Source: Deltaproteobacteria bacterium (GTDB lineage Bacteria > Myxococcota > Kuafuiibacteriia > Kuafuiibacteriales > Kuafuiibacteriaceae). Taken from it: a stretch of DNA of 64,000 nucleotides. Under the pieces are notes generated by a model that saw only the letters and a list, made by a program, of their open reading frames with translations, was not told where the DNA came from and made no database searches. Positions 6,644 through 41,702 of the stretch are shown here, piece by piece. Position numbers and translations under genes: made by a program. Location: positions 32,001 to 96,000 of the forward strand of contig JAVJQW010000043.1 of NCBI GenBank assembly GCA_040218735.1, in the 5' to 3' direction. The number at the start of each line of letters is the position of its first letter. The stretch's first letter is position 1.

Positions 6644-9355
6644 GTGCATCTTCTCCCGACCACGATGACCACCGCGAGCGACGCCCGCGGCGGGGTGCTG
6701 GCGCTCGGCGGCGTGGCCTTCATGCTCATGGCGGTCGCCGCCGCGTACCTGTGGCACGATCGCGGCGAGCCCGAGACGGCGGTCGCCGCCGCGGCGCCCG
6801 AGAAGCCGCTGAAGGTCTACTTCGGCGGCTGCCACGAGGTCCACGAGGGCCCGGTGTGCATGCTCAGCGGCACCGCGACGATCACGCTGTGGATGGAGGA
6901 CCCGGGGTACGAGCCCGTGGTGCTGGTGGATGGGCAAAAGGCTGTGACACGGGGTGCCCCGATCGACGGAGGTGTTCGCGTGCGAGTCGCCGTTTCATCC
7001 TCAGCCCGGCGTCTGACCATCGAACCCGATCGGTGGAACCTTCCCATTGAAAGCGCGCGGCATTTCCCAGCTGTCGACCGAATCCAAGCCGAGCGTATCG
7101 CACGGCCGGCCCACGCGCTCGCACAGGCTGTCCGCGCTAAGGATATCGCCCGTGATTCGCATGAACGCGCGGAACTGGCGTCGATGACCGCTCGGCTCCA
7201 CTACGACCTCAGGAATCGTGAGTGGAAAGACGACATCCTTCAATCCATCGAGCTACATCGCGTCAACGGATGTCTCACTGGAATGGCAAGAGACCTCGCG
7301 TTCGCTAGTCATCGCCTTCGCGATAATGGAGATATCGCGGGATCCCGTGATTCCCTCCGTCTGCTCGACGACGTTGCACGGAAGGCGCCGGAGTACAAAC
7401 TGGCGCATGCGTACTTCGACGCAATGCTCAAGAACCAGACTGGTGACACAAGAGCTGCTCTGGATGCACTCGACCACCTCAATCTGTGGTCCTACCGCCT
7501 TGCTGACCAAACATACCACGAGGCGTCAATATACCTAACCCTATTACTAATGTCCTTTCTTTCGCGTAGTTCGGAGACGCAACTGCTCCTCGAAAGACTC
7601 TCCGCGCAGGTGGCGAACACGCGAGAGCCCTGCGCAAAGGCTCGACTGCTAAATAACTTGGCGTGGTTCGGACGCGGTGTGGATGTCGATCGGAGCGTGC
7701 GTGCGGCGATGGAATCCGCACAAATCTACAGTGCTTCGTGCCCAAACGCCGAAGGCGATGTCCTCCTCCGGCTAACACTCGGGCGCCTCTACCTTCAGAA
7801 GGGTGATGCCGAATCGGTGCAGTCTACTCTGGCCTCGTTGGCGCGTTACTCACGGACCGAAATAAGCGCCCGTAATCAGATCGAGATTGATGACCTACGG
7901 GCGCACCTGGCTGCGCTCAATGGCGACGGAAACAGGGCTCTTCGGCTATTCGACTCAGTACGGCGTCGGACTGGGATTCACTATGAGGCCAAGCTCCATT
8001 GGAGCGCACTAGTTGGTATCGCAGCGGCGTACCTGCGTGACGGTCAAACGAGCCTTGCGGTCGAGACTCTACAGGAGGCAGAACGACTTGTGGATCTTCT
8101 TGTCCTTTCGATCCCACTCGGCGAAGGGAGGACTTCTTTCACAGACGAAATGGGTCGCTCATCAGAGATGCTGGTCGAGGTCCACCTCGACGACGGCGAT
8201 CTAGACGCAGCTATGAGAACCGCTGCAGCTAGTATCCGAAGAGCATCAAGCGCTCTTGCTCTGGCCGCGCGAGTGTCAGCGCTGCCAGCTGACATACGGG
8301 GCAGATTCCGAGATCGACTCGAATCCTACCGTGCGGATCGCCAGCAACTAGCGTCGATTGTTCGTGATGCCTGGAGACTGCCGACGACGCAGCGTCGGCG
8401 AATGGAACACCGCCGCCTGCGACTTGAAGCAAAGTTGACTCGGCATCTTGACGCAATGGTGTCCATGGCTGAGCTTGACTGGAGACAGGACGAACGGCCC
8501 CTTGAAACTACAAGTGGAGAACTCGTTCTCTATCCGACGGCCGATGGCTTTGTAGCGCTACTTCGCCTCTTCGGCGGCCTCGAGTGGACGAAGATATCCG
8601 GTGATCTGGAGACGAACCTGAGAGATTGGCTAGCGCTAAGTCTGAATCTCCGGGGCGGTGAGTTGCATCGACTTTTCGTACTTTCTCACCCAAAGCTGTT
8701 ACAGATACCAGTAGACCGGCTAGTCAGTCAGTTGTCGCCGTCTCCTGTCGTTACTGCCTACTCCGCCGGACTGTTGCAAGCACATCGGCCGAAGAGGCCA
8801 AAGCGAGCTCTTGTTGTCGGTGATCCGGACGGCACGCTGCCGCAATCGCGGTCTGAGATTGAAGTCGTGCGTCGACAATTGACTGCGAAGCGTTGGATGG
8901 TAGACGTGGTAGTAGGTGACGACGCCCGAAGGGAGACGATTCTCGCGAGCCTATCAGATGTGCGTTACGGCCTATTTCACTTCGCAGGACATTCAGCTTC
9001 ACGCGGGGTGTCGGGTTGGGAGAGCTATCTTAGGACGGCCGATTCCGACTCCATCACGGTTGCCGACATCTTTGCGCTCGAGTCGGTTCCCCCGGTTGTT
9101 GTGCTTTCCTCATGCGAAGGTGGCGGCGATGGGTTCTCGCCCGTTGGAATTGCTCAGGCGATGATTGCGCGCGGGGCAGTCGTGGTCATAGCAGCAACGC
9201 GTGATGTTGAGGACGGGTACGCAAGGAAGCTCGCCACCGAGCTGTATCGGCCGGAGGGTGAACTCCGGGTTGATGTCCGATTGGCTGAGCTAGGTTGGAA
9301 TGCACAGAATGTAGAAAACGCTCGTGCCGCTGGGTTTCGAACCTTTGTGAGGTAA
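6644..9355 (+). CDS. Membrane-anchored/exported TPR-CHAT (caspase-like) protease 1
   Basis: N-terminal hydrophobic helix; TPR-like helical middle; CHAT motifs ALVVGDPDGTLP, LFHFAGHS (His), VVLSSCEG (Cys). Confidence 0.88.
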   Translation: MHLLPTTMTTASDARGGVLALGGVAFMLMAVAAAYLWHDRGEPETAVAAAAPEKPLKVYFGGCHEVHEGPVCMLSGTATITLWMEDPGYEPVVLVDGQKAVTRGAPIDGGVRVRVAVSSSARRLTIEPDRWNLPIESARHFPAVDRIQAERIARPAHALAQAVRAKDIARDSHERAELASMTARLHYDLRNREWKDDILQSIELHRVNGCLTGMARDLAFASHRLRDNGDIAGSRDSLRLLDDVARKAPEYKLAHAYFDAMLKNQTGDTRAALDALDHLNLWSYRLADQTYHEASIYLTLLLMSFLSRSSETQLLLERLSAQVANTREPCAKARLLNNLAWFGRGVDVDRSVRAAMESAQIYSASCPNAEGDVLLRLTLGRLYLQKGDAESVQSTLASLARYSRTEISARNQIEIDDLRAHLAALNGDGNRALRLFDSVRRRTGIHYEAKLHWSALVGIAAAYLRDGQTSLAVETLQEAERLVDLLVLSIPLGEGRTSFTDEMGRSSEMLVEVHLDDGDLDAAMRTAAASIRRASSALALAARVSALPADIRGRFRDRLESYRADRQQLASIVRDAWRLPTTQRRRMEHRRLRLEAKLTRHLDAMVSMAELDWRQDERPLETTSGELVLYPTADGFVALLRLFGGLEWTKISGDLETNLRDWLALSLNLRGGELHRLFVLSHPKLLQIPVDRLVSQLSPSPVVTAYSAGLLQAHRPKRPKRALVVGDPDGTLPQSRSEIEVVRRQLTAKRWMVDVVVGDDARRETILASLSDVRYGLFHFAGHSASRGVSGWESYLRTADSDSITVADIFALESVPPVVVLSSCEGGGDGFSPVGIAQAMIARGAVVVIAATRDVEDGYARKLATELYRPEGELRVDVRLAELGWNAQNVENARAAGFRTFVR

Positions 9356-9362
9356 ATTTGAG

Positions 9363-9824
9363 ATGAGATACAAACTTCTGTTCTTGACGATTCTGACGGC
9401 TGCAAATGCTACTGCTTGCATTCCTGTCCATCGCTGCGACTGCTGTGAGAAAGTCGTTGTGAAATGCGCTGACGGGCGCGGGCAGTCTGGCGATGGTGGG
9501 CTCGGTCCCGTTGGGCCTGACGCTCCCTGCCCACCATGCACCCTCTACATCTCGGACACCCAGCTCCAGGGCGTCCTGGATCCCAAGTACTCGAAGCACG
9601 AGTACCCGTTCACCACCGCCACCCTCACGGTGTTCAACGCCGCGGCGAATCCGATCGGGCAGGCGGTCCTTCAACCTGATCACCAGTACGGGGGGACGAA
9701 CATCGACCAGAAGGTCGTGTTCGATACGCCGCTCGACACGAACGACATCAAGTCGGCGTCGATTCGGTGGATCGACAAGAACGGGCAGGCCCTCGAGCAG
9801 CCGAACATCATGCTCAAGCCCTGA
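9363..9824 (+). CDS. Small secreted/lipoprotein with PCPPC domain
   Basis: Signal peptide with ATAC lipobox-like site; paralogous to 9885-10274. Confidence 0.75.
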   Translation: MRYKLLFLTILTAANATACIPVHRCDCCEKVVVKCADGRGQSGDGGLGPVGPDAPCPPCTLYISDTQLQGVLDPKYSKHEYPFTTATLTVFNAAANPIGQAVLQPDHQYGGTNIDQKVVFDTPLDTNDIKSASIRWIDKNGQALEQPNIMLKP

Positions 9825-9849
9825 GTCGCACCTGCCCTCTCGGGCAGTG

Positions 9850-9877
9850 TTGCGCCCCCCCCCCCGCGGCCTAAGCT
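9850..9877 (+). promoter_or_regulatory. Putative sigma70-type promoter with C11 tract in the spacer
   Basis: TTGCGC 9850-9855, 16-nt spacer (C run 9855-9865), TAAGCT 9872-9877, ATG at 9885; preceded by hairpin ctgccc-tctc-gggcag. Confidence 0.45.
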
Positions 9878-9884
9878 CGCCGCC

Positions 9885-10274
9885 ATGAACACGTCCAAGA
9901 TGCTCATCATGGCGAGCGCGCTCGCGGCCGCCTTCGTCTGGGTCGCGCTACCCGCCGCACTGCTGAGCGCGAACCCGAACGTGTCGTGTCCACCCTGCAC
10001 CTACGACATCTCGCGCCAAGAGCTCACCGGCACCCTCGACCCCGGCTACACCGCGCACCCCTTCCCCTTCACCGGCATGACGCTCACGCTCGTGGACGGC
10101 TCCGACAACGTGCTCGACACGATCGCGGACCTCCCGCCGAGCTTTCAGTACGGTAGCACCGTGCTCGATCAGGTCATCGACACCGACGTCACCTCCGGCG
10201 TCGCCAAGGCTCAGCTCGAGTGGATGGACGACGACAACAACCCGGTCTCCCAGACGATCACCGTCGTCCCCTGA
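9885..10274 (+). CDS. Small secreted protein with CPPC domain (paralog of upstream gene)
   Basis: Signal peptide; CPPCTYDISRQELTGTLDPGY..PFPFT aligns with CPPCTLYISDTQLQGVLDPKY..EYPFT; both share QYG and a W..D motif. Confidence 0.78.
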   Translation: MNTSKMLIMASALAAAFVWVALPAALLSANPNVSCPPCTYDISRQELTGTLDPGYTAHPFPFTGMTLTLVDGSDNVLDTIADLPPSFQYGSTVLDQVIDTDVTSGVAKAQLEWMDDDNNPVSQTITVVP

Positions 10275-29659: not shown

Positions 29660-29932
29660 ATGACGAAAGCAGAGCTCCTCGAGGCGATCGCAAAAGGTAA
29701 CCCCGAGCTGACCAAGAAGCAGGTGACCTCGGTCGTCGAGTCCGTGTTCTCGACCATGACCACGGCCATCAAGAAGCAGAAGAAGTTCTCGTACCCCGGC
29801 TTCGGCTCGTTCGAAGTCCGCACGCGCAAGGCGCGCATGGGCCGCAACCCGCAGACCGGTGAGACGATGAAGATCAAGGCGTCGAAGACGGTCGGCTTCA
29901 AGCCCGCGAAGGCCCTGAAGGACATCCTTTAG
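29660..29932 (+). CDS. hup: HU family DNA-binding protein
   Basis: MTKAELL..., GFGSF, RMGRNPQTGE, FKPAKALKD. Confidence 0.95.
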   Translation: MTKAELLEAIAKGNPELTKKQVTSVVESVFSTMTTAIKKQKKFSYPGFGSFEVRTRKARMGRNPQTGETMKIKASKTVGFKPAKALKDIL

Positions 29933-30069: not shown

Positions 30070-32727
30070 GTGCTCGCCTGGACTTCACCTTCGCTGGGCT
30101 CCCGCGTGCCGATCGCGGCGTTGGCCGGGCTGGTCGCGGCGGTGGTTGGACTCGACGGTCCACCGCACACCTCGGCGCGTGCGCAGCTGCTGGGGTTCGT
30201 TGCGGTCGAGCGCGACGCGGATGGCTTGGTCTACGTCTTCGACGCCGAGCACACGCCGTTCGTCGTCGCGGACGCGGCGCCCGAACGTGTCGAGCTCGCG
30301 GCGGACGTGCTCCCGCATCCAAGCGATTGTTCTGCGCGCTGTCGCATCGACGTCACGTTCCCGAGTCGCGCCGAGCTGCAGACGTTCGTGGTCGACGACC
30401 ACATCTGGCGCGTTCGCGTCGTGCCCTCGCGGTGGCCATCGCTCGACGCTGCACGCGAGGCGGCGGACGCTGACCGTTGGGGCGACGCGTTCGCCGCGCT
30501 CGACGCCATCCGCCCCAAGGATCGGCTGGAGCGGATCGCCGTCGCGACGGCCGCCGCCTCGTTCGCGCGTCGACGCGGAGACACCGCCGGATACGTCGAA
30601 GCCGTCGAACGGTGGGGCCGCCTCGCCCGGCGCCTCGACGTCCCGAGCGAGGTGAGCCGCTCGCTCCGCACGCAGGCCTTCTTGGCGTTCTACCGCCGCG
30701 ACTTCGACGCGGTGTTTCCGCTCTTGGATCGCGCCGAGGTCATCGACGCCGACATCGCCAATACTTCGGGCCTCGTTCGCGCTGCCGCCTATCGCAGCCT
30801 GACGCTGCGAGAGCTCGGTCGTTTCCGCGACGGGATGCAAGTAGCCGAGGAAGGCCGACGCCTCGCGCTCGACGTCGGGCTCACGGAAGACGCGGGGACG
30901 CTCGGCGCCGCGATCGCGCGCATCGCGCTGCACTCGGGCGACTACACACGTGCGCTGAAGGAGCTCGACCTCGCCGCTGATCGCGTCGCGCCGCACGAGC
31001 GCGCAGGGGTGCTCGTCGAACGCGGCTGGACGCTCGCCTCTGCGATGGTCGCGGGCGCCATCGAGGTCGACTGGTCGAAGCCGCGCGCCGACTTCGAACG
31101 TGCGTTGCGCCTCGCGAGACGCGACGGCTTGCCGGTCCCGGAAGCCAACGCGCTCGTCGATCTCGCGTGGCTCGATCACCTCGAGGGTCGCGATGCCGCC
31201 GCGGCGCGCCTGCAGGGCCTCGATCTCGAAGCGCACCCCGTCGCGCAGGTCTTCGTGCAGATCGTGGTCGCCACGCGTGCGCGGGAGGAGGGGCGGTTAG
31301 CCGATGCCCGGGCGGGGTTCGAGCGGGCGCTCGCGATGGCGCACGCGGGCAGCGACGAGACCTCCAACCTGGCCTGGCGCGCGACGTACGGTCTCGCGAA
31401 GACCGCGGCGGCGGCGGGCGAAGACGCTCGCGCCGCACAGCTGTTCGATCGTGCGCTCGACGCGCTCGATCGCATCGCGCGCCACGTCGAGATCCATCGT
31501 GCGCGGGCGTTGTTCGCGCAGGATCGCGCGGGGCTCGTCGACGATGCCATCCGCGCTCACCTGTCGCGGGGTGACGTCGCTCGGGCGATGGTCGTGGCGG
31601 ATCGCGCGCGGCTCCTCGTGCTCGAACCGCTCGCATACCGCTCGGCGCTGGAGGGGCTGGACGAATCGCAGCGGTCGGCCTGGCGGCGCGCGGTCTTCGA
31701 CTACGAACGGACGCGCGGCATCTACGAACGGCGCGCGGGCGGGGCGGAGCTGATCCCCGCCTCCCGGCTCGACGCCTATCACCGCGAGACCGAGCGCCAG
31801 CGCGAAGAGCTCCAGGTGCGATTCGACGCGGCGACGGCGATCCTCGACGCGAGCGGCGTCGTCGCGGACTCGGTTCGACTCGGAACGGACGACATCACCG
31901 CCCGCGTCGGACCGGGCCAAGGGCTGCTCTACTTTCACGCCGCCGCCGACGGGACGTACGTCGCGTTCTTCGTGACCGAGGAGCGCATCGAATACGTGGT
32001 GCAATCCGAACCGACGCCCGGGGCTTGGGCGCAGTCGGTTGCGAAGATTTCCCACCTCACGATCGTCCCGCCGCCGGGGCCGGACCCGTGGAGCGCGACG
32101 CACCTCGCACCCGACGCGTTTGCGCCGACGTCGATCTCCTTTCTCCCGCTCGCTGGCCTCCTCGGTCGTCGTGAACAGGCCAACCGCGACGGGCGTCCGG
32201 TCATCGTCGCGGATCCGCAGAGCAACCTCGAAGCGGCGCGCCGCGAGGTCGAGGCGCTGCACCCCGGCGCCCTACGTCTGGTCGGACCCACCGCGACCCG
32301 GCGCGCCGTGCTCGGTGCGCTCGACGGCGCGACGCACTTTCACTTCTCGGGCCACGGGGCGCTCCAGGCCGACCGCCCCTGGGACGCTCGACTGCTCCTC
32401 GCCGCCGGTGAGTCACTCTCCGTCGAAGACCTGCTCATCGTCCGTCCGTCCGTCGCCCACGTCGTTCTGATCGGCTGCCGCACCGGGCGCTCCGCGAAGC
32501 TGAGCCGGACGGCTTACCTCGGGCTCGCGGAGGCGTTCCTCCTCGTGAGCGCCTCGTCCGTCGTCGCGAGCACACGCGACGTCGAGGACGAGTTGTCGCG
32601 ACGGTTCGTGCGGGCGTTCTACGCGGCGGGCGGTGCCGACGATCCGTTCCGCGCGTACGCGACGGTGGCCCGCGACGATCCGCGGCTCGCCCGCCCGTTC
32701 TACGTCGCTGGAGCACCGCGCCCATGA
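30070..32727 (+). CDS. Exported TPR-CHAT (caspase-like) protease 2
   Basis: N-terminal hydrophobic segment; TPR helices; VIVADPQSNL, HFHFSGHG (His), VVLIGCRTG (Cys), GLAEAFL. Confidence 0.9.
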   Translation: MLAWTSPSLGSRVPIAALAGLVAAVVGLDGPPHTSARAQLLGFVAVERDADGLVYVFDAEHTPFVVADAAPERVELAADVLPHPSDCSARCRIDVTFPSRAELQTFVVDDHIWRVRVVPSRWPSLDAAREAADADRWGDAFAALDAIRPKDRLERIAVATAAASFARRRGDTAGYVEAVERWGRLARRLDVPSEVSRSLRTQAFLAFYRRDFDAVFPLLDRAEVIDADIANTSGLVRAAAYRSLTLRELGRFRDGMQVAEEGRRLALDVGLTEDAGTLGAAIARIALHSGDYTRALKELDLAADRVAPHERAGVLVERGWTLASAMVAGAIEVDWSKPRADFERALRLARRDGLPVPEANALVDLAWLDHLEGRDAAAARLQGLDLEAHPVAQVFVQIVVATRAREEGRLADARAGFERALAMAHAGSDETSNLAWRATYGLAKTAAAAGEDARAAQLFDRALDALDRIARHVEIHRARALFAQDRAGLVDDAIRAHLSRGDVARAMVVADRARLLVLEPLAYRSALEGLDESQRSAWRRAVFDYERTRGIYERRAGGAELIPASRLDAYHRETERQREELQVRFDAATAILDASGVVADSVRLGTDDITARVGPGQGLLYFHAAADGTYVAFFVTEERIEYVVQSEPTPGAWAQSVAKISHLTIVPPPGPDPWSATHLAPDAFAPTSISFLPLAGLLGRREQANRDGRPVIVADPQSNLEAARREVEALHPGALRLVGPTATRRAVLGALDGATHFHFSGHGALQADRPWDARLLLAAGESLSVEDLLIVRPSVAHVVLIGCRTGRSAKLSRTAYLGLAEAFLLVSASSVVASTRDVEDELSRRFVRAFYAAGGADDPFRAYATVARDDPRLARPFYVAGAPRP

Positions 32728-33410
32728 ACGACGAGCGCCTGGACTCGCTCCTCGCGCAGGGGCCCGAGCCGGGACCCGAGGGGACCCACGTGGACGACGG
32801 CAAGCTCGTCGCGTTCCGGGAAGGGCGGCTCGGTGCCGACGAGATCAATGACGTCGAGGCACACCTCTCTGCGTGTCGCGATTGCCGTGAGCTACTCGAA
32901 GAGCTCGCCGTCGACGTCGAGCCCGAGCTGTTCGACCGCGCGCGCGCGGCGGCGCGAAGAAACCGACGCTCCGGGCGTGCGCTCGTCGTCGGCCTCGCGC
33001 TCGCGGCGGCGACGCTCGCGGCGTTCTTCCTCCCGCGCAACGGCCCGTTGCCACCCTACGCGGTGGAGGGGCCGATGGGGGGCCTCACCACGGTGCGCGG
33101 TACGTCGCCCGGCGGCGAGGTCTTCGTTCCGGCGAGCCGCGTCAAGATCCTGCTGAGGCCGGAGCGACCCACACGTCCCCCACGCTTGACCGTGTTCGTC
33201 GTCGATCTCGACGGCACCGACGTCCGCGCGCCCGAGGGCGTCGTCACCGCCGGCGAGCAAGGCGGCTTCAGGGTCGAGTTCACGGCTCGGGATCTATTCA
33301 AGCGAACGTTCGGCACACGCACGGTCCGGCTCGTGCTGTCGGACGGCGCCGCCGAAACGCAGTTCGAGGTCGCGGTCGACTACCGCGAGGAAAGAGGGAG
33401 TGAGAGATGA
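32724..33410 (+). CDS. Putative zinc-binding (zf-HC2/ZAS) membrane anti-sigma factor
   Basis: H..........VEAHLSACRDC (HxxxCxxC); single TM ALVVGLALAAATLAAFFL; C-terminal extracytoplasmic domain; ATGA coupling. Confidence 0.8.
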   Translation: MNDERLDSLLAQGPEPGPEGTHVDDGKLVAFREGRLGADEINDVEAHLSACRDCRELLEELAVDVEPELFDRARAAARRNRRSGRALVVGLALAAATLAAFFLPRNGPLPPYAVEGPMGGLTTVRGTSPGGEVFVPASRVKILLRPERPTRPPRLTVFVVDLDGTDVRAPEGVVTAGEQGGFRVEFTARDLFKRTFGTRTVRLVLSDGAAETQFEVAVDYREERGSER

Positions 33411-35698
33411 AACGCCGACAAGCCACCCTGACGGTGCTGATCGTATCGGCGCTGGCGTGCACGACCGCGTCGGAGCCGACGCAGCCCACGGAGAGCGCAT
33501 CGAGGATCCGCGAGCTCGGCCGCCCGTGTCGCTCCGACGCGTTCTTCGTCGACATCCCCGTGAAGCTGGCGATTCCGTCGCACTGGCGGAACGCAGGCTT
33601 CCTCTCGGCGCTCGAAACCAACCTCGAAGCGCTCGCCAACGCGCCGGGCAAGCCGTGGTTCTGTGGTTCGGGCGCGATCACTTGTCCGACGAACGCGGTG
33701 ATCGTCGAAGCCACGTCGCTGCTCCCCGAGCGCTCGACCCCTGCCTGGCGAGCCGACGGTCACCTGCGGCACTTCCGCGTGAAGTTCCGGGAGGCCGGCG
33801 GAGACGGGACGCCGCTCTCCGTTCGGCACCTCGAGCAGTGCAAGGTGGTCGCGACGATCCGCGACGAGTTCGCGCTCGTCGCAGGCGTCGTCGCCGCCGA
33901 CACCCTGTTGGTCGGACGTGAGTGCGACGCATCGGTGGCGGGCGTCGAGGGCGCGCCGAGCGACGAGATGCTCTCGTGGCACCTCACTCGCATCGGACTT
34001 CCGGCCTCCGTGACCGCGGTCGAGCCTCCCGCCTCGTCCACCGTCGACCTCGGGCTCGTCGACTCGGGTGTCATCCCTGAGGTGCAGGCTTCGATCGGCG
34101 TGGCGTCCGAAGACGACCTCGTCGCCGCTCCCGGCCGTCACGTTCACGGGACCGCGCTGGCGATCCTCGCCCGGCAGGTCGCGCCGGAGGCTGCGCTTCG
34201 ATCCGTGCGGGTCCTCGACGCCGGTGGATCCGGGACCAGCGGTGCGCTCGCGCTCGGCCTCGACCAGCTGCTCTTCGACACCACGTCCACGCAGCCGCTG
34301 GTGATCAACCTGAGCCTCGGATGGCCGAAGCAGCTCAGCAACAGCGCCGCGCTGGTCGGTCTCAGCTGCCAGACCCACGAGGACCCGTACGGCGAAGCCG
34401 TGCGCTACGTCCTCGACGTCGCACAGCGCATCGACGCCGCCGGGACCCGTCCGATCTTCGTGGCCTCGTCGGCCGGCAACCTGCCCCTGCCTCCGGACGA
34501 CGCGTTGTTCCCGAACACCGACGGGATGTACGGCCCGGACCCCGACTGCAGCGAGCCCGAGCCGAAGCTCTTCTTCCCCGCCGAGTGGAGCCGCACCGAC
34601 ACCTGCCGCATCGATGTCACGCGGCGCGAGCGCGTCAGCGTTGCGGTGAGCGCGACCGACGACCAAAACCACCGCGCACAGATCTCCATCCCCGGGACGG
34701 AGACGCCGATCGTCGCGCCGGGGCAGCACGTCTACGCCGCCGACGAAGCCGCGCCGCTCACTTCGACGGCCCCGGTGTGTGGCGGAGCGTCGATGGCGTT
34801 CCCGCCGACGGTCACGTTGCCCGTCGCGCTGACGGGGACGTCGGTCAGCTCCGTGTTGGTGTCCGCCGCGGCCGCGCGAGCCCAAGCCGCGTTGATGGCT
34901 GCGGGTGGCGTTCCACTGAAGCGAACCCCGCTCGCTCGCCTGATCTACCTGACGGGGCGCCCCGTGTGTCGCAACACGGCCGAAGGGACGCCGGTGCGCA
35001 TGCTCGACGTCGCGCGTCTGGACGCAGCCATCGCGAACTGTCCGTCCCTCGTTCAGTGCGCGGCGGCCGTTCCGTCTTCCAACGAGTCGATCATCGATAA
35101 ATGGACGCTCGCGGAGTGCAGCATCGAGATCGCCGCCTGCTCCGCGTTGGGCGGGACGCCACCGTGCACGCAGCCGACCTCGGTCGAGTGGCCCAGCGCC
35201 TATATGAACACGCGGGCCGTCTGCAAGCTCGACGTCATCGACGAGCCGCTGAAGCTCGTCTCGAGCTGCACGCCCAACTGTCCCTTCAACAACGGACGTG
35301 ACCGCGCGCTGGTCGGCTCGTTGGGACCGCAGCCCGGCAGCCCGCTCTGCCCGGACTGCCCCGCGCTGATCGACGCGCAGGCGCCGGCCGCCCACCTCGT
35401 CCTCGAGTTGGAGGACACCTACGAGCCGGAGACGACGCTCGCGAACCCGTTCCTCCTGATCTCCGGTCCGCACCCGACGACCGGGCACGTCCAGAAGTTC
35501 CACATCGATCTGTCGAAGGACACGCCGCCGCACATCTGGGTGCCGGGCGCGCACCTCGAGCTCACCGTCTCGCTCGACGGTCCGCAGATCGACTGGGGTC
35601 AGGTCGACGCGATCGATGCCGCGCTCGTCGTCGGCGTCACGCCGCCGGGAGGCAAGGCGTCGACGGACTACTCGCCGCTGCGCGTGGGGCCGCTCTGA
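33407..35698 (+). CDS. S8 (subtilisin-like) serine protease lipoprotein with Cys-rich C-terminal domain
   Basis: Lipobox ALAC; triad LVDSG (D), HGTA (H), GTSVSS (S); VINLSLG, SAGN; C-terminal GPQPGSPLCPDC. Confidence 0.88.
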   Translation: MKRRQATLTVLIVSALACTTASEPTQPTESASRIRELGRPCRSDAFFVDIPVKLAIPSHWRNAGFLSALETNLEALANAPGKPWFCGSGAITCPTNAVIVEATSLLPERSTPAWRADGHLRHFRVKFREAGGDGTPLSVRHLEQCKVVATIRDEFALVAGVVAADTLLVGRECDASVAGVEGAPSDEMLSWHLTRIGLPASVTAVEPPASSTVDLGLVDSGVIPEVQASIGVASEDDLVAAPGRHVHGTALAILARQVAPEAALRSVRVLDAGGSGTSGALALGLDQLLFDTTSTQPLVINLSLGWPKQLSNSAALVGLSCQTHEDPYGEAVRYVLDVAQRIDAAGTRPIFVASSAGNLPLPPDDALFPNTDGMYGPDPDCSEPEPKLFFPAEWSRTDTCRIDVTRRERVSVAVSATDDQNHRAQISIPGTETPIVAPGQHVYAADEAAPLTSTAPVCGGASMAFPPTVTLPVALTGTSVSSVLVSAAAARAQAALMAAGGVPLKRTPLARLIYLTGRPVCRNTAEGTPVRMLDVARLDAAIANCPSLVQCAAAVPSSNESIIDKWTLAECSIEIAACSALGGTPPCTQPTSVEWPSAYMNTRAVCKLDVIDEPLKLVSSCTPNCPFNNGRDRALVGSLGPQPGSPLCPDCPALIDAQAPAAHLVLELEDTYEPETTLANPFLLISGPHPTTGHVQKFHIDLSKDTPPHIWVPGAHLELTVSLDGPQIDWGQVDAIDAALVVGVTPPGGKASTDYSPLRVGPL

Positions 35699-35709
35699 GC
35701 GAGTGACCC

Positions 35710-36294
35710 ATGTCCGTCGACGACCGCCAGATCGTCCGCCGCGCGTTCGCGGATGAGGACGACGAAGCGCTGGAGCAGCTGCTCTGTCGCCTCGTTCCCA
35801 TCATCCGCGCGCGCGCCGCGCGGGCGCTGCGAAGAGGCCCGATCGGCGCGCACGACGTCGCGGACCTGGTCCAGGAGATCTGGATTGCGCTGATCGCCGA
35901 CGGCGGTCGCCGTCTGCTGACCTACGACCCCGCGCACGGCCTCACCCTCGAAGGTTTCGTCGGGTTGATCGCCGAGCGTGAGATCGCTTCGATGCAACGT
36001 AAGGTCCTCGCGAAGAAACGCGGCGGCGATCTCCGAATCGTGAGCGACGATGGCCTCACTGTCGCGGCGTGCGGCGGCAACCCCGAGGACGAGGCGGTCA
36101 CCAACGACCTCGCCGCCCGCCTCGCGGCGCACCTCGACGCGCAGCTCCCGGTGCGCGGTCGCCTCGTCTGGCGGCTCGCGTTCAACGACGGTCAGTCGAC
36201 CGCCGAGGTCGCGCGCAACATGGGCGTCAGCCAACAGGTCGTCTACAACTGGCAGCACAAGATTCGCGCGTTGGCGCGTGCGTTCCTGAAGTGA
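35710..36294 (+). CDS. ECF RNA polymerase sigma factor
   Basis: Region 2 DVADLVQEIWIAL; region 4 LP...RLVWRL...GQSTAEVARNMGVS. Confidence 0.88.
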   Translation: MSVDDRQIVRRAFADEDDEALEQLLCRLVPIIRARAARALRRGPIGAHDVADLVQEIWIALIADGGRRLLTYDPAHGLTLEGFVGLIAEREIASMQRKVLAKKRGGDLRIVSDDGLTVAACGGNPEDEAVTNDLAARLAAHLDAQLPVRGRLVWRLAFNDGQSTAEVARNMGVSQQVVYNWQHKIRALARAFLK

Positions 36295-36349: not shown

Positions 36350-38614
36350 TCACCGCGAGAAGGGCGAGTCCATGCCTTGGTGGAGCTGCTGCCGCAGCAG
36401 GGTGGTGTTGCCGTCCACGACGTAGCCGTACACCGCACCGCCAGGGAGGTTCAGGCCCAACGCGGTCGGCGTCAGCGATTCGGGCGCGCCGACGAACAGG
36501 CGCATCCGCTCGGCGCCGTACACCCCGCCGACCCCCGCGACCAGCGGGTCGATGTGCACCCAACCCGACGCCAGCGACATCCCGAAGCGCTTGGCGTTCG
36601 AGACCGTCAGCAGGTCAGGTCCGTTGCTGACGTTCCAGGTGGTGACGAGGACGCGCTCGACGCGCCCGTCGCCGTCGAAGGGGGCGCCCACGATGATGTC
36701 GTCATCGCCGTCCGCGTCGATGTCCGCGGCGAGCACGGCGTGACCGTAGCGCCCGCCGTCCACGCTGCCGTGGGCGTCGCCGGCCGCGAAGACCGTGCAC
36801 CCCGAGCCGAAGATCTTCTGATAGACCACCACCCGACCCACCTCGGCGTTGCCGCTGCGGTAGCGCGGGGCGCCGATGATCAACTCGTCGGCGGACTCGA
36901 ACTTGCCGCGCACGTTGCCGGTCGTCATGGAGAATCCGAACTCGCTGTTCGACGTCGGCGGCGTGATGTGCTGGTGGGGTTGGAAGTACTGCAAGCCGCC
37001 ACCGCAGAACACGTAGACGTGCTCGCGACCGTAGGCCGGCGCGGCGATCGCGACGTCGGCGTTCCCATCGCCGTCGAAGTCTCCGGTGGTGACCGCGGCG
37101 CCGAGCGTGAAGGGCGGCGTGCCGCCCAGGCCGCTGACGTCGAGGGGGGCCCCCAGGGCCGTGCCGCTGGGATCCAACGTATCGCCGATGAAGAAGTAGG
37201 CTCTGCCGGTCCCGAAGCCGGAGCTCGCCCGAGGAGCGCCGACGATCAGCTCGTCCGTGCCGTTGCCGTTGCCGTCGCCCGTCGCGAGGGCGGCGCCGAA
37301 CCAGTCGCCGCTGGCCTCGGCGACGCCGGAGATCGAGCTGCCGCTGAGGATGCGCCACGGGGTCAGAGGCTCGTAGTCGCTGTCGACGCACGTCGGGCAG
37401 TTCGTGTCCGTCGCTTGCGGTTGCATGTTGGCCTGGGCGAACTGGCCGCCGCCGAAGATCGAGACCGTGCCGGACGCGATGCCGAACGGGCTGAGCGCGC
37501 CGGGCGCGCCGACGGCGAGGTCGGGGAACTGATCTCCGTCGAAGTCACCCACCGCGAGCGCGGCGCCGAAGCGATCGTCGTTGCCGTGCAGGCCGCCGAC
37601 GTCCGCGTAGCGCAGGACGCGCCAGGGGACGGGCGTGCGCGCGGTGCCCTTGTAGACGAGCACGGCGCCGAACGTCGTCGAGCCGGGTCCGGCCTCACCG
37701 GGCACGCCGACGGCGATGTCGTCGTAGCCGTCCTGGTCGAAGTCGGCGACGACCATCGCTGCGCCCATGTCCTCGTTCGGGAGCGGTGTGCTCAGCGGCT
37801 CGGCGTACATCAACCACAGCGCGTTGATGTCGTGTTTGGTCGGGAGGTTGTTCGTCGCGATGGCGGTCTGGGTGCCCGGCACGTCCGGGGCGGTGTCGAC
37901 ACCGGCGCGGGCCTTCAGCGTCTGATTCGTCGTGACGTAACCCTCGGTCGTGAGTGACGTCGTGGTCTCGCAGACGAACTGCGGAGGCGTCACCGTGTAG
38001 TCCCAGACCGGCGTGCAGAACAGGTTCGTGCCGTAGTGCATGACCGACTGGTGGTCGTAGGGCGTGAGCTTCGAGTGGTCGTTCGGATCCTTGATTTCGA
38101 AGTTGTGCGCCTTGTCAGCGATGTTGGCGTGGATCACCGTGACGTAGTCGTCCCGGTCGGGCCGTTGGTGCTCGTGCCTCAGGCCGAGGATGTGGCCGAC
38201 CTCGTGAATCGCCGTGCGTACGCCTGCGTTGTCCGTGAGGTGGACGACCGACTTTCCGCCGCCCGTACCGTTCTTGGCGTGTGACCCGCCGTTCGTGTCG
38301 GGCTCGCGCTGGAACAGGATGTAGTCGCCGCTGCCGCTCGGGACCTGGATGAACTGAAGCGGCACGCGCGCTTCGAGGGCGTCGACCGCTTGTTCGACGG
38401 CGCCGACGACGTCCGCGGGGAGCACCTTGTCGGCGTCGGACCCCGAGTAATACGTGTACTGGACGACGTTGCTCGGCCAGCGCGTCCCGAGGTCGTTCCT
38501 CGCGTAGACCTCGTCGGTCGTCGTCTCGGCCTCCACCGCTTCGGGCAGCTCACCCGAGCAGGCCGTGAGCCACAGCGTCGCCCACGCGAGGTGAGTCTTG
38601 GTTGGATGTTTCAT
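36350..38614 (-). CDS. Astacin (M12A) metalloprotease lipoprotein with FG-GAP repeats
   Basis: Lipobox LTAC; HEVGHILGLRHEHQRPDRD, Met-turn SVMHY; repeated FGAALAxGDFDGDxxxDLxVGAP. Confidence 0.92.
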   Translation of the reverse strand: MKHPTKTHLAWATLWLTACSGELPEAVEAETTTDEVYARNDLGTRWPSNVVQYTYYSGSDADKVLPADVVGAVEQAVDALEARVPLQFIQVPSGSGDYILFQREPDTNGGSHAKNGTGGGKSVVHLTDNAGVRTAIHEVGHILGLRHEHQRPDRDDYVTVIHANIADKAHNFEIKDPNDHSKLTPYDHQSVMHYGTNLFCTPVWDYTVTPPQFVCETTTSLTTEGYVTTNQTLKARAGVDTAPDVPGTQTAIATNNLPTKHDINALWLMYAEPLSTPLPNEDMGAAMVVADFDQDGYDDIAVGVPGEAGPGSTTFGAVLVYKGTARTPVPWRVLRYADVGGLHGNDDRFGAALAVGDFDGDQFPDLAVGAPGALSPFGIASGTVSIFGGGQFAQANMQPQATDTNCPTCVDSDYEPLTPWRILSGSSISGVAEASGDWFGAALATGDGNGNGTDELIVGAPRASSGFGTGRAYFFIGDTLDPSGTALGAPLDVSGLGGTPPFTLGAAVTTGDFDGDGNADVAIAAPAYGREHVYVFCGGGLQYFQPHQHITPPTSNSEFGFSMTTGNVRGKFESADELIIGAPRYRSGNAEVGRVVVYQKIFGSGCTVFAAGDAHGSVDGGRYGHAVLAADIDADGDDDIIVGAPFDGDGRVERVLVTTWNVSNGPDLLTVSNAKRFGMSLASGWVHIDPLVAGVGGVYGAERMRLFVGAPESLTPTALGLNLPGGAVYGYVVDGNTTLLRQQLHQGMDSPFSR

Positions 38615-38759: not shown

Positions 38760-41702
38760 ATGGGGACCCTCCGCTTCGACGGTAAGACCGTCATCGTCAC
38801 CGGCGCCGGCAACGGGCTCGGCCGCGCGCACGCGCTCCTGTTCGGGAGCCGCGGCGCGAACGTCGTGGTCAACGACCTCGGCGGGAGCATGCACGGCGGG
38901 GGCAAGAGCAGCGCCGCCGCCGACGAGGTGGTCGAGCAGATCAAGGCGGCGGGCGGGAACGCGGTCGCGAACTACGACTCGGTCGAGGACGGCGCGAGCA
39001 TCGTGAAGACGGCGATGGACGCGTTCGGGCGGGTCGACGTGCTCGTGAACAACGCGGGCATCCTCCGCGACAAGTCGTTCGCGAAGATGACGGAGGAGGA
39101 CTGGGAGCTCGTCTACCGCGTGCACGTCCTCGGCGCGTTCCGTGTGACGCACGCGGTCTGGCCGATCATGCGCGAGCAGCAGTATGGGCGCATCGTCATG
39201 ACCGCGTCGGCGGCCGGGCTGTACGGCAACTTCGGACAGGCGAACTACGCGATGGCGAAGCTCGGGCTCGCGGGCTTTTCGAACACCCTCGCGATCGAGG
39301 GCCGCACGAAAAACGTGCACGTGAACACGATCGCGCCGATCGCCGGCTCACGGCTGACCGAGACGGTGATGCCGCAGGAGCTCGTCGACGCGCTGAAGCC
39401 CGAGTACGTCTCGCCGCTCGTCGCGTACCTCTGCCACGAGGACACCGAGGAGACGGGCGGCATCTTCGAGGTGGGCGGTGGGTTCTTCGGCAAGCTGCGC
39501 TGGGAGCGCAGCGTTGGATCGATGACGCGGCTTGGGCGAGAGATCACGCCCGAGATCGTCGCGAGCCACTGGGACAGCATCGCGGGCTTCGACGAGACGA
39601 CGCACCCCGCGGACGTGATGGGGTCGATGCAGCCGATCGTCGAGAACGTCAGCGCCGGTCCGAGCCGGGGCGGCAACGAATTCATCGACGTCGACGCCGC
39701 GCTCGGCGCCGAGCTCCCGGCGGTGAAGACGAAGTACGACGAGCGCGACCTCGCGCTCTACGCGTTGGGCGTGGGGGCCGCGGAGGACCCGTCGGGCGCG
39801 GACCTCCCGCTCGTGTACGAGCTGCACAACGAGGGCTTCAAGGCGCTGCCGACCTATGCGGTGGTGCCCGCGGTGAACGCGTTCCTGAACGCGATGAAGG
39901 ACGGCCTCAGCGTGCCCGGGTTGAACTACGGGCTCGACCGCGTCCTGCACGGCGAGCAGCGCACGACGCTGATTCGCCCGCTGCCGAAGAACGCGACGCT
40001 CACGCACAAGGCGCGCGTGAAGAACATCTTCGACAAAGGCAAACACGGGATCGTCGAGATCGAGACGAAGACCTACGACGAAGACGACGATCTGCTGTGC
40101 ATCAACGAGATCGTGATCGTCGTGCGCGGCGCCGGCGGTTGGGGCGGTGAGCGTGGCGAGTCGAGCGAGGCGAAGCCGATCCCCGAGACGAAGCCGGACG
40201 CTGTCGTCGAGGAGAAGACCCACGACAACCAAGCGCTGCTCTACCGCCTCTCCGGGGACTGGAACCCGCTGCACGCCGATCCGCAGTTCGCGAAGATGTT
40301 CGGCTTCGACCGGCCGATCCTCCACGGGCTCTGCACGCTCGGCTTCGCGGGGCGGCACGTGGTGCAGGCGTTCGCGAACAACGACCCGCGCTACGTGAAG
40401 CGCATCGGCGTTCGGTTCGCGGACAGCGTGTTCCCGGGCGAGACGCTCGTGACCGAGATGTGGAAGCAGGACGGCGCGATTCGTTTCGTGACGAAGGCGA
40501 AGGAGCGCGACTCGGTGGTGCTCAAGGACGGCGTCATCGAGCTGTTCGACGAGATTCCGAAGAAGGCACCGAAGTCGAAGACGATCGAGCTGCCGGTCTC
40601 CGACGAAGGCGCGACCGCGGTGCCGACGAGCGCGGACGTGTTCACGGCGATTCGGCGTTACATCGAAGCGAATCCGTCGCTCGCGAAGAACGTGCAGACG
40701 GTGTTCCGCTTCGAACTGTCGAACCCCGGTAGCGCGTGGACGATCGATCTGAAGAAGGGCGAGGTGCACGTCGGGCGGGACGGCGATGCAGACACCACGC
40801 TCGCGCTGACCGACGACGACTTCATGAAGATGTGCACCGGCGAGGCCGACGCACAGAAGATGTTCATGAACGGGCAGCTGAAGATCACGGGCAACGTGAT
40901 GGCGTCGCAGAAGCTGGAGTTCCTGAAGAAGCTCGACCCCGCGTGGGTGTTCGAGGCGGCCGCGGAGCGAGGTGGCGGCGCGGCGCCGGTCGTGAGCGAC
41001 GAGCCCACGAGCTGGGACGTCTTCATCGCGATCGAGGACCACGTGAAGCGGAACCCGGACCTCGTCGCGAAGATCGGCATGGTCTACCGCTTCGACCTCA
41101 CGGACCCGAGCACCACGTGGACAATCGATCTGAAGAACGGCGCGGTCGTCGAGGGGGCGCCCGCGAGCGCGGACTGCACGCTCACGCTATCGGACGCCGA
41201 CTTCATGGCGATGACCAAGGGCGAGGCGGATCCGCAGAAGCTCTTCATGGGTGGGCAGCTGAAGATCAGCGGCAACATCATGGCGTCGCAGAAGCTCGAG
41301 TTCCTGCAGAAGATGGATCCCGAGGAAGCGAAGGCCGCGGTGATCGCGGCGCGCAAGGCGGGGCGCGGACCTTCGGCGAACGAAACGACGACCGCGGACG
41401 CGCCTTCGGCCTCGCAGGCGGAGGCGATCGCGAAGCAGATCGAGGCGCAGCTCGCGGAGGCGAAGGACCTCGCGGGGACGGTTCAGATCCTGCTGACGGA
41501 TCCGGACGCGGCGATGACGGTCGACGCGTCGGCGGTGAAGCTGGAGCGCGCGTCGGAACCGTCGGCGACGGTCACGGTTGCGCAGGACGACCTGCTCGGC
41601 CTGTTGAAGAAGGAGAAGTCCGCGCAGGAGCTGTTCCAGCGCGGCGAGCTCAGGATCGACGGTGACCTCGACGTCGCCCGACGCCTCTGGTTCATTCGGT
41701 AA
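38760..41702 (+). CDS. Peroxisomal-type multifunctional enzyme 2 homolog (SDR + MaoC hydratase 2 + three SCP2 domains)
   Basis: [28 protein letters not shown]; [18 protein letters not shown]; SCP2 [24 protein letters not shown]. Confidence 0.92.

What the first reader, a model, noticed from the sequence alone, without database searches (positions are those of the whole stretch)
9363..10274. Two stand-alone CPPC-domain secreted proteins resemble the subtilase C-terminal domain
Seen: the two small genes after CHAT-1 are paralogs (CPPCT..IS...L.G.LDP.Y..H..PFT..TLT). The lead-in of the first, LGPVGPDAPCPPC, mirrors LGPQPGSPLCPDC, which starts the roughly 125-aa C-terminal domain of the S8 protease in the CHAT-2 operon; all three are followed by a beta-rich domain of similar length. 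So each CHAT locus carries a CPxC domain, protease-fused in one and free in the other. Inference: this domain is the cognate ligand, activator, substrate or inhibitor of the TPR-CHAT.
Basis: partly seen in the sequence, partly recalled or inferred. Interest (0 to 1): 0.75.

Follow-up and report, generated by a model that had tools for sequence, protein, structure and literature searches.

The report
Free copies of a protease-partner domain
Two small exported proteins encoded after a caspase-like periplasmic protease are free-standing copies of an undescribed domain that otherwise forms the tail of the subtilisin-like protease partnering such enzymes, so this domain is a good candidate for the piece the caspase-like protease recognises.

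Summary
Genes 9363-9824 and 9885-10274 are real paralogs (39% identity, E 3e-21). Each has an export signal, a CPPC motif and a beta-rich domain of about 95 aa.

Pairwise and shallow-profile comparisons with the window's own S8 tail fail (E 0.23 and 2.5; hhalign 0.7-1.7%). With deeper alignments, 33 small proteins against 12 or 21 S8 tails, hhalign gives 94% probability (E 1e-7, 99-101 collinear columns). Reversed and shuffled controls score 0.6% or less. Most of the signal comes from the P-x-P...C-P-x-C lead-in. The rest alone gives P 0.0014.

The domain is tied to CHAT genes:
- All 9 S8 genes carrying it in this genome sit beside a TPR-CHAT gene with an ECF sigma and an anti-sigma. I read 24 S8 genes in the genome.
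- The two free copies follow CHAT-1.
- A distant metagenome locus repeats the pattern: sigma, anti-sigma, TPR-CHAT, then two free copies.

What the domain does (ligand, substrate or inhibitor) is untested. A complex prediction gave no verdict.

Earlier notes of this scan report the sigma/anti-sigma/CHAT/S8 cassette on other DNA. A word search of those notes found none on the domain or its free form. The family has no Pfam or PDB match.

Verdict: a new variant of a known kind.

The parts
6644..9355 (+). CHAT-1: membrane-anchored periplasmic TPR-CHAT caspase-like protease (903 aa). The His783/Cys824 dyad is conserved. Residues 51-100 are a conserved juxtamembrane segment and the body is divergent.
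   Evidence: Pfam CHAT E 4e-18. H783 and C824 are invariant in 6 orthologs. Residues 51-100 are 92-96% identical in 3 of 5 orthologs, while bins after residue 100 are 12-72%. GC3 is 0.97 for codons 1-95 and 0.57 for the body.
9363..9824 (+). Small-1 (153 aa). It has a lipoprotein-like signal (…ATAC, Cys19), a Cys-rich stretch HRCDCCEKVVVKC, a Gly/Pro linker, CPPC at 9528-9539, and then the beta-domain to the stop.
   Evidence: ORF and translation. Paralogy with small-2 E 3e-21. Three long-form homologs (P0001, P0002, P0004) are 75-81% identical overall, with an almost invariant CxxC domain. GC3 is 0.55 for codons 1-55 and 0.89 for the CxxC domain. Lipobox-like Cys.
9885..10274 (+). Small-2 (129 aa). 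It has a signal peptide, CPPC at 9987-9998, and then the beta-domain to the stop.
   Evidence: ORF. Homologs P0006, P0007 and P0008. GC3 0.92. NCBI locus tags of P0004 and P0006 are consecutive, which indicates the tandem pair in another assembly.
30070..32727 (+). CHAT-2: second periplasmic TPR-CHAT protease (885 aa).
   Evidence: Pfam CHAT E 5.7e-21. It is 31% identical to CHAT-1 over the CHAT domain, E 2e-15.
32724..33410 (+). Zinc-finger (zf-HC2) membrane anti-sigma factor.
   Evidence: Pfam zf-HC2 E 8.8e-5. A hydrophobic segment was found by script.
33407..35698 (+). S8 subtilase lipoprotein (763 aa). Stretches of sequence sit where the Asp/His/Ser catalytic motifs are expected.
   Evidence: Pfam Peptidase_S8 E 6.3e-8. 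LVDSGV, HVHGTA and GTSVSS are read in the translation. Assigning these to the catalytic triad is from my recall of subtilase motifs.
35330..35698 (+). C-terminal CxxC beta-domain of the S8. The lead-in QPGSPLCPDC starts at residue 642, and CPDC lies at 35348-35359.
   Evidence: Motif position. Best own-genome match of the S8-tail profile, E 2.9e-27. hhalign to the small-protein family 94%.
35710..36294 (+). ECF sigma factor that closes the CHAT-2 cassette.
   Evidence: Pfam Sigma70_ECF E 2.5e-5.

Best explanation
Small-1 and small-2 are exported single-domain proteins. Small-1 looks like a lipoprotein and small-2 has an ordinary signal peptide. Their domain starts with P-x-P...C-P-x-C and continues as a beta-sandwich of about 95 aa. 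It is the same domain that forms the C-terminal tail of the S8 subtilases encoded next to periplasmic TPR-CHAT proteases in ECF sigma / anti-sigma cassettes.

In the CHAT-1 locus, and independently in metagenome locus L006, the S8 enzyme is absent and two free copies of its tail domain stand in its place.

I read the domain as the CHAT-facing module of the partner protein: the part that the TPR-CHAT protease binds, either as a docking ligand or as a (pseudo)substrate. On this reading the free copies are protease-less partners that occupy or regulate CHAT-1 in the periplasm.

Shown: gene reality, paralogy, family-level similarity to the S8 tails, and strict gene linkage to CHAT.

Inferred: physical contact with the CHAT protein and the direction of regulation.

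My odds: real exported family 0.95; homologous to the S8 tail 0.8; works with the TPR-CHAT 0.7; acts by direct binding as a ligand or pseudosubstrate 0.3-0.4.
For: Reality of the genes and the family:
- Small-1 vs small-2: 39% identity, E 3e-21.
- Six homologs in other assemblies, in two subfamilies.
- An exhaustive profile search found 29 proteins at E<=1e-3. Of these, 28 are stand-alone proteins of 83-165 aa.
- 29 of 33 aligned members keep the CxxC pair, and at least 17 of 33 have a lipobox-like Cys.

Similarity to the S8 tails:
- hhalign of 33 small proteins vs 12 S8 tails: 94.3%, E 1.1e-7, 99 columns from the lead-in to the C-terminus.
- vs 21 tails: 94.2%, 101 columns.
- The result is robust: 95.7% without any window sequence, 93.0% with distant members only, 92.9% with genus members only.
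- Controls: reversed 0.6% or less, 20 shuffles 0.2% or less, anti-sigma periplasmic domains 0.1%.
- With the lead-in cut off, the same register persists: score 21.4, P 0.0014, against a maximum of 11.0 in 30 shuffles.
- The S8-tail HMM hits the small-1 ORF at E 0.0063 in the CHAT-neighbourhood ORF set.

Linkage to CHAT:
- A genome-wide profile search found 9 S8 tails. All 9 lie within about 3.5 kb of, and on the same strand as, one of 21 CHAT genes. All 9 also have a sigma and an anti-sigma within 9 kb.
- By my reading of the 27 Pfam S8 matches there are 24 S8 genes in the genome.
- L006 encodes ECF sigma, anti-sigma, a 919-aa TPR-CHAT (25% identical to CHAT-1, E 4e-24) and then two tandem family members with CNIC and CNAC.
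- In 13 CHAT-1-like loci of other genomes that I extended, the downstream gene is an S8 in 12. Eleven of those 12 carry the QP...C..C lead-in.
Against: - Most of the hhalign score comes from the short Pro/Cys lead-in (46.8 falls to 17.8-21.4 without it). The beta part alone reaches only 4-18% probability.
- The window's own S8 tail is not detectably similar on its own.
- HMM-to-sequence searches do not cross the two groups at genome or database scale.
- Context could be obtained for only 2 loci of the distant small-protein relatives. In one of them (L007, 1.2 kb) the upstream gene is not a CHAT.
- The small-1 beta-domain is nearly invariant while the CHAT-1 body diverges to 12-72% per bin. That is not what a co-evolving, allele-specific interface predicts.
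- The CHAT-1 locus has no sigma or anti-sigma within 9 kb, so its output is unknown.
Confidence: 0.6

Rival explanations
1. The small proteins are substrates or outputs rather than binding regulators. CHAT-1 cuts them in the flexible Gly/Pro linker just before the CxxC. This releases the beta-domain from its lipid anchor, and by analogy CHAT clips the tail off the S8 to activate or release it.
For: A disordered Gly/Pro-rich linker precedes the CxxC in the small lipoproteins. A conserved PQP-rich stretch precedes it in the S8s. The DdvA paper proposes that a periplasmic CHAT cuts a flexible linker (PMC11506125, passages read). The linkage evidence is the same as for the best explanation.
Against: No cleavage site is known, and nothing here separates a substrate from a ligand. 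Small-2 has an ordinary signal peptide and almost no linker, so there is little to cut.
Confidence: 0.2
2. The resemblance to the S8 tail is convergent, a shared Pro-rich CxxC lead-in on unrelated small beta-sandwiches. The small proteins are lineage-specific periplasmic lipoproteins that merely travel with CHAT-1.
For: Removing the lead-in drops hhalign to 4-18% probability. There is no pairwise similarity to the window's S8. The fold searches return only generic sandwiches. Twenty-six CHAT-1-like loci from other genomes or elsewhere in this genome hold no small family member in the sequence fetched, up to 1.5 kb of flank.
Against: The alignment is collinear over 99-101 columns and ends at both C-termini. 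The lead-in-free part still beats all 30 shuffles (21.4 vs 11.0 or less). An upstream Cys 21-23 residues before the CxxC is shared by small-1 and the S8s. Both groups sit in the same position next to TPR-CHAT genes, including in L006 at 25% CHAT identity.
Confidence: 0.15
3. The CxxC pair is the functional core. The domain is a periplasmic thiol-disulfide or metal (for example copper or zinc) sensor that reports envelope redox or metal stress. Its link to CHAT/S8 is as the input sensor of the cassette, not as a docking handle.
For: The first Cys is nearly invariant and the pair is kept in 29 of 33 small proteins and in all 21 S8 tails used. Extra Cys clusters occur in small-1 and some relatives. 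CHAT-1 keeps a conserved Cys pair (C63, C72) in its conserved N-terminal segment.
Against: There is no match to thioredoxin-like, Dsb or metal-binding Pfam families in 33 of 33 members at E<=1. Four of 33 members lack the pair. An exported CxxC may simply be a structural disulfide.
Confidence: 0.1

Closest known systems
[quoted passage not shown]
   Same: Both involve a periplasmic, membrane-tethered TPR-CHAT with a His-Cys dyad, tied to an ECF sigma / zinc anti-sigma pair. The authors expect the signal to be a periplasmic protein that docks on the TPR-CHAT.
   Different: In the window the CHAT protein, the anti-sigma and the sigma are separate genes (CHAT-2 locus), and an S8 protease with the CxxC tail is added. 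CHAT-1 has no sigma or anti-sigma nearby and has two free CxxC proteins instead. The passages I read mention no CxxC-domain partner for DdvA.
ECF sigma / anti-sigma / TPR-CHAT / S8 four-gene cassette
   Same: The CHAT-2 locus has all four genes. Nine such cassettes exist in this genome.
   Different: Those descriptions do not mention the S8 C-terminal CxxC domain or a free-standing form. A word search of the scan's notes found none, and literature searches found none. ECF54 is actinobacterial and has no putative anti-sigma (PMC7826278; the review PMC8999054 likewise says it is regulated without an anti-sigma).
Small dedicated protease partners encoded next to their protease (staphostatins, chagasin-type inhibitors, securin for separase). 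Staphostatins and chagasin are recalled from memory. Securin is named as the separase inhibitor in PMC11506125.
   Same: These are small beta-rich proteins, or pseudosubstrates, encoded or acting with one cysteine protease. The size and position directly downstream are similar.
   Different: No sequence or family match to any inhibitor family was found (Pfam; PDB sequences). The fold evidence is inconclusive, and inhibition was not tested.

Membership tests
CHAT-associated S8 C-terminal CxxC beta-domain (unnamed; defined here from 21 S8 tails) | Lead-in with Pro-rich stretch and C-(P)-x-x-C about 95-125 aa before the C-terminus | tested here: met
   Small-1 has GPVGPDAPCPPC and small-2 has NPNVSCPPC. 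Thirteen of 14 S8s have the QP...C..C lead-in, and so do 8 of 8 further own-genome S8s.
CHAT-associated S8 C-terminal CxxC beta-domain (unnamed; defined here from 21 S8 tails) | Profile-level sequence similarity over the whole domain | tested here: met
   hhalign 94.3% and 94.2%, E about 1e-7, 99-101 columns. Controls gave 0.6% or less. The part after the CxxC alone is weak (P 0.0014-0.01).
CHAT-associated S8 C-terminal CxxC beta-domain (unnamed; defined here from 21 S8 tails) | Gene lies beside a TPR-CHAT gene | tested here: met
   Small-1 and small-2 directly follow CHAT-1. All 9 S8 tails in the genome are CHAT-adjacent. L006 shows the same arrangement.
CHAT-associated S8 C-terminal CxxC beta-domain (unnamed; defined here from 21 S8 tails) | Same three-dimensional fold | tested here: inconclusive
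ECF sigma / anti-sigma / TPR-CHAT / S8 cassette | All four genes present in one locus | tested here: not met
   The CHAT-1 locus has no sigma, anti-sigma or S8 catalytic gene within 9 kb. The CHAT-2 locus meets this feature.
DdvA-type anti-sigma factors | Cytoplasmic zinc-binding anti-sigma domain fused to the periplasmic TPR-CHAT | tested here: not met
   CHAT-1 and CHAT-2 show only CHAT/TPR Pfam hits and a short N-terminus before the membrane segment. The zf-HC2 domain is on a separate gene at 32724-33410.
Thioredoxin-like / Dsb CxxC oxidoreductases | Thioredoxin-fold family match around the CxxC | tested here: not met
   No Pfam family was shared by more than 1 of 33 members at E<=1, and none was thioredoxin-like. 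The predicted secondary structure after the CxxC is all-beta.
Known protease-inhibitor families (chagasin, staphostatin, subtilisin-inhibitor types) | Sequence or fold match to a curated inhibitor family | tested here: inconclusive
   No Pfam hit and no PDB sequence hit (best E 0.85, an antibody chain). The fold search was run on a low-confidence model only.

The most novel reading that the evidence does not exclude
The CxxC beta-domain is the dedicated recognition handle of periplasmic TPR-CHAT proteases. Fused to an S8, it couples the two proteases of a sigma-switch cassette. As free lipoproteins (small-1, small-2 and the L006 pair), it has become a stand-alone regulator or pseudosubstrate of an orphan CHAT.

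In the CHAT-1 locus a low-GC3 cassette (about 6929-9527) swaps the CHAT body together with the Cys-rich N-terminus of small-1. Meanwhile the CHAT N-terminal segment and the CxxC domain stay fixed. That would make the locus a polymorphic lock-and-key pair built on a constant docking domain.
Probability: 0.2. Interest if true: 0.8.

Novelty: new variant of a known kind. Interest (0 to 1): 0.6.

Why it matters
Periplasmic TPR-CHAT proteases are now known to gate an ECF sigma factor that switches on phage defence in Myxococcus (DdvA). What they bind or cut is unknown, and the authors of that work expect a periplasmic protein partner.

This finding points to a concrete candidate. It is a previously unannotated domain of about 100 aa that accompanies these proteases either as the tail of their S8 partner or as free small proteins.

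A free, soluble 10-kDa domain is much easier to test for binding, cleavage or inhibition than a 760-aa lipoprotein protease. With nine paralogous cassettes plus one S8-less variant in a single genome, cognate versus non-cognate specificity can also be tested.

Tried and rejected
- Direct BLASTP of either small protein against the window's S8 was not significant.
- hhalign against a 2-sequence S8-tail profile or the single sequence gave 0.7-1.7%. These shallow profiles lacked power.
- The own-genome HMM of the two paralogs gave a third hit, which is an antisense frame over another gene.
- P0055 (1324 aa) from the exhaustive search is a leucine-rich-repeat protein. I treat it as spurious.
- Pfam on all 33 members, a PDB sequence search and the ESM Atlas gave no usable relative (top score 0.83, no stored model).
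- Fold searches of both models returned only generic sandwiches.
- Complex prediction with CHAT-1 residues 46-903 and small-1 residues 20-153 gave no verdict (score 0.01 against a mark of 0.32, controls not run).
- The search for related loci failed or found nothing with A2, A4, A6 and A7. Only A8 gave loci.
- Searches of 20 genomes of the family and 401 of the phylum found the small proteins only in the window's genus. Only 10 candidates per genome were scored.
- phmmer with the window's S8 against the downstream ORFs of the other loci found nothing at E<=1e-3, although Pfam of 13 of them S8.
- The anti-sigma periplasmic domain is not related to the CxxC domain (0.1%).
- Pairwise identity among the 9 paralogous S8s is 22% in the tail against 33% in the catalytic part. 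This is suggestive of divergence but not decisive.

Full report
**The genes**

The window is high in G+C. It holds CHAT-1 (6644-9355, 903 aa; Pfam CHAT E 4e-18). Small-1 (9363-9824, 153 aa) starts 8 nt after the CHAT-1 stop, and small-2 (9885-10274, 129 aa) follows a 60-nt spacer. A DUF885 gene converges on them.

Small-1 begins with a lipoprotein-like signal ending in Cys19. It continues with HRCDCCEKVVVKC, a Gly/Pro linker, CPPC and a beta-rich domain. Small-2 has a plain signal peptide, CPPC and the same domain.

The two are paralogs: 40 of 103 identities, E 3e-21. GC3 of the CxxC-domain frames is 0.89 and 0.92, as in neighbouring native genes.

Six homologs from other assemblies fall into the same two subfamilies. 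Two of them carry consecutive NCBI locus tags, which indicates a tandem pair in that assembly.

**The second locus**

The CHAT-2 locus reads as follows:
- CHAT-2, 30070-32727
- a zf-HC2 anti-sigma, 32724-33410
- an S8 lipoprotein, 33407-35698
- an ECF sigma, 35710-36294

The S8 carries LGPQPGSPLCPDC 125 aa before its end.

**Is the S8 tail the same domain?**

Direct tests fail:
- BLASTP gives E 0.23 and 2.5.
- hhalign of 8 or 33 small proteins against a 2-sequence S8-tail profile gives 1.7% and 0.8%.
- An HMM of the paralogs does not find the S8 in the genome at E<=10.
- An exhaustive profile search of 1.84 billion representatives returns 29 proteins at E<=1e-3 and none is an S8. Of these, 28 are 83-165 aa, and one is a 1324-aa leucine-rich-repeat protein that I treat as spurious.

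The picture changed when I collected more S8 tails. CHAT-1-like proteins occur in 20 of 301 genomes of the phylum at E<=1e-20.

I tabulated 27 of the fetched loci, all outside CHAT-1's own locus. From these I extended 13, the ones where a long same-strand ORF ran off the end downstream of the CHAT gene. Among the 14 loci not extended, some had sigma/anti-sigma-like ORFs downstream and some stopped at a contig end.

In 12 of the 13 extended loci, that downstream gene is an S8. Eleven of those 12 carry a QP...C..C lead-in 107-125 aa before the C-terminus. So do the window's S8 and P0010, at 134 aa.

An alignment of 12 such tails (A9) against the 33 small proteins (A4) gives hhalign probability 94.3%, E 1.1e-7. 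The 99 aligned columns run from the lead-in to both C-termini.

Controls and robustness:
- Two reversed alignments give 0.6% or less, and 20 column shuffles give 0.2% or less, with scores of 7.0-14.4 against 46.8.
- The periplasmic domains of the cassette anti-sigma factors, taken from the 15 anti-sigma ORFs found near CHAT genes, give 0.1%.
- The result survives removal of all window sequences (95.7%), use of distant members only (93.0%) and use of genus members only (92.9%).
- With 21 tails it is 94.2% over 101 columns.

The caveat is that the lead-in carries most of the score. After cutting both alignments behind the CxxC, the same register is recovered but weakly: score 17.8, P 0.01. With 21 tails it is 21.4, P 0.0014, against a maximum of 11.0 in 30 shuffles.

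Structure could not settle the question. The two models are poor (pLDDT 60.0 and 64.7) and match only generic beta-sandwiches.

I put homology at about 0.8.

**Linkage to CHAT**

A genome-wide search with the S8-tail profile finds 9 tails. Each lies within about 3.5 kb of, and on the same strand as, one of the 21 CHAT genes. Each also has an ECF sigma and an anti-sigma within 9 kb.

By my reading of the 27 Pfam S8 matches, the genome has 24 S8 genes. The 9 with the tail are all CHAT-adjacent. One further CHAT-adjacent S8 (contig C23, 441-aa frame) was not hit by the tail profile. None of the 14 S8 genes away from CHAT genes was hit by it.

CHAT-1 is the only CHAT locus with free copies, and it has no sigma or anti-sigma within 9 kb.

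Independent support comes from metagenome locus L006, found through a distant family member. It encodes an ECF sigma, an anti-sigma-like membrane protein, a 919-aa TPR-CHAT and then two tandem small family members with CNIC and CNAC. That TPR-CHAT is 25% identical to CHAT-1 (E 4e-24).

A second locus, L007, is only 1.2 kb long. Its upstream gene is not a CHAT, and its member lacks the full Cys pair.

In the window's genus, synteny is conserved as far as the fragments allow:
- The CHAT ortholog in G011 ends at a contig end, with an ATG 5 nt after its stop.
- Another G011 contig starts with the small-2 tail followed by the DUF885 ortholog (69% identity).
- CHAT-1 orthologs sit on contigs whose lengths equal those that hold the small-protein homologs, in 4 of 4 cases.

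**Mechanism**

The closest characterised system is DdvA/DdvS of Myxococcus xanthus. There a periplasmic TPR-CHAT is fused to a zinc anti-sigma, and the trigger is thought to be a periplasmic protein docking on the TPR-CHAT (PMC11506125, abstract and passages).

A review notes subtilase and CHAT genes around ECF54 sigma factors (PMC8999054, passage). ECF54 is actinobacterial (PMC7826278, passages).

Earlier notes of this scan describe the four-gene sigma/anti-sigma/CHAT/S8 cassette in at least 7 other genomes. None mentions the tail domain. Five literature searches found no description of it.

The domain is present wherever these S8s pair with a CHAT. It can also persist alone when the S8 enzyme is gone. 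The most economical reading is therefore that it is the part of the partner that the TPR-CHAT engages, and that the free copies are protease-less partners that bind or are processed by CHAT-1.

Binding was not shown, and a complex prediction returned no verdict.

One observation cuts against a finely co-evolving interface. The small-1 CxxC domain is nearly invariant among its long-form homologs, while the CHAT-1 body is 12-72% identical per 50-aa bin.

The conserved pieces are CHAT-1 residues 51-100 (92-96% identical in 3 of 5 orthologs), the CxxC domain and small-2. The variable pieces, the CHAT body and the first 55 codons of small-1, share a low GC3 of 0.55-0.57, against 0.89-0.97 in the flanks.

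If the beta-domain contacts CHAT-1, it more likely contacts a conserved surface. The Cys-rich N-terminus of small-1 is the part that travels with the variable body.

**Verdict**

The homology claim is supported at family level, with a stated weakness. The CHAT linkage is strongly supported, and the function is still inferred.

The family is absent from Pfam and from PDB sequences. I class the finding as a new variant of a known kind: a DdvA-like sigma-switch cassette whose S8 partner is replaced by free copies of its tail domain.

Noticed in passing
window 6929-9527: There is a sharp compositional mosaic. GC3 is about 0.56 across the CHAT-1 body and the first 55 codons of small-1, against 0.89-0.97 in CHAT-1 codons 1-95, the small-1 CxxC domain and small-2. 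The right-hand junction falls at the CPPC codons. Protein identity to orthologs shows the same mosaic.
   Followed up: partly
own genome, outside the window (contigs C50, C54 twice, C58, C59, C61, C64, C67) plus window 30070-36294: The genome holds nine paralogous ECF sigma / anti-sigma / TPR-CHAT / S8-with-CxxC-tail cassettes. Seven further CHAT loci have a sigma and/or an anti-sigma but no S8 tail.
   Followed up: partly
own genome C23:85586-87719: An S8 gene (441-aa frame) lies next to a CHAT gene and an ECF sigma, but the tail profile did not hit it. It may be a truncated or tail-less variant.
   Followed up: no
L044 (G011:C1354:7150-9716): The S8 downstream of a CHAT homolog lacks the QP...CxxC lead-in. 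Its open frame runs into a stretch matching an AI-2E transporter family, which may reflect a frameshift, a fusion or an assembly join.
   Followed up: no
window 9858-9867: A run of ten C lies in the 60-nt spacer between small-1 and small-2.
   Followed up: no
window 36350-38614 (-): An astacin-type metalloprotease with five FG-GAP repeats is encoded convergently, right after the ECF sigma of the CHAT-2 cassette.
   Followed up: no
window 38760-41702 (+): A 980-aa multifunctional-enzyme-2-like protein (short-chain dehydrogenase plus hydratase) carries three SCP2 sterol-carrier domains.
   Followed up: no
window 29660-29932 (+): An HU-type DNA-binding protein gene sits immediately upstream of CHAT-2.
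   Followed up: no
L006 7201-8400: The two small CxxC genes of the metagenome locus have lower G+C (0.60-0.64) than the rest of that contig (0.66-0.74).
   Followed up: no
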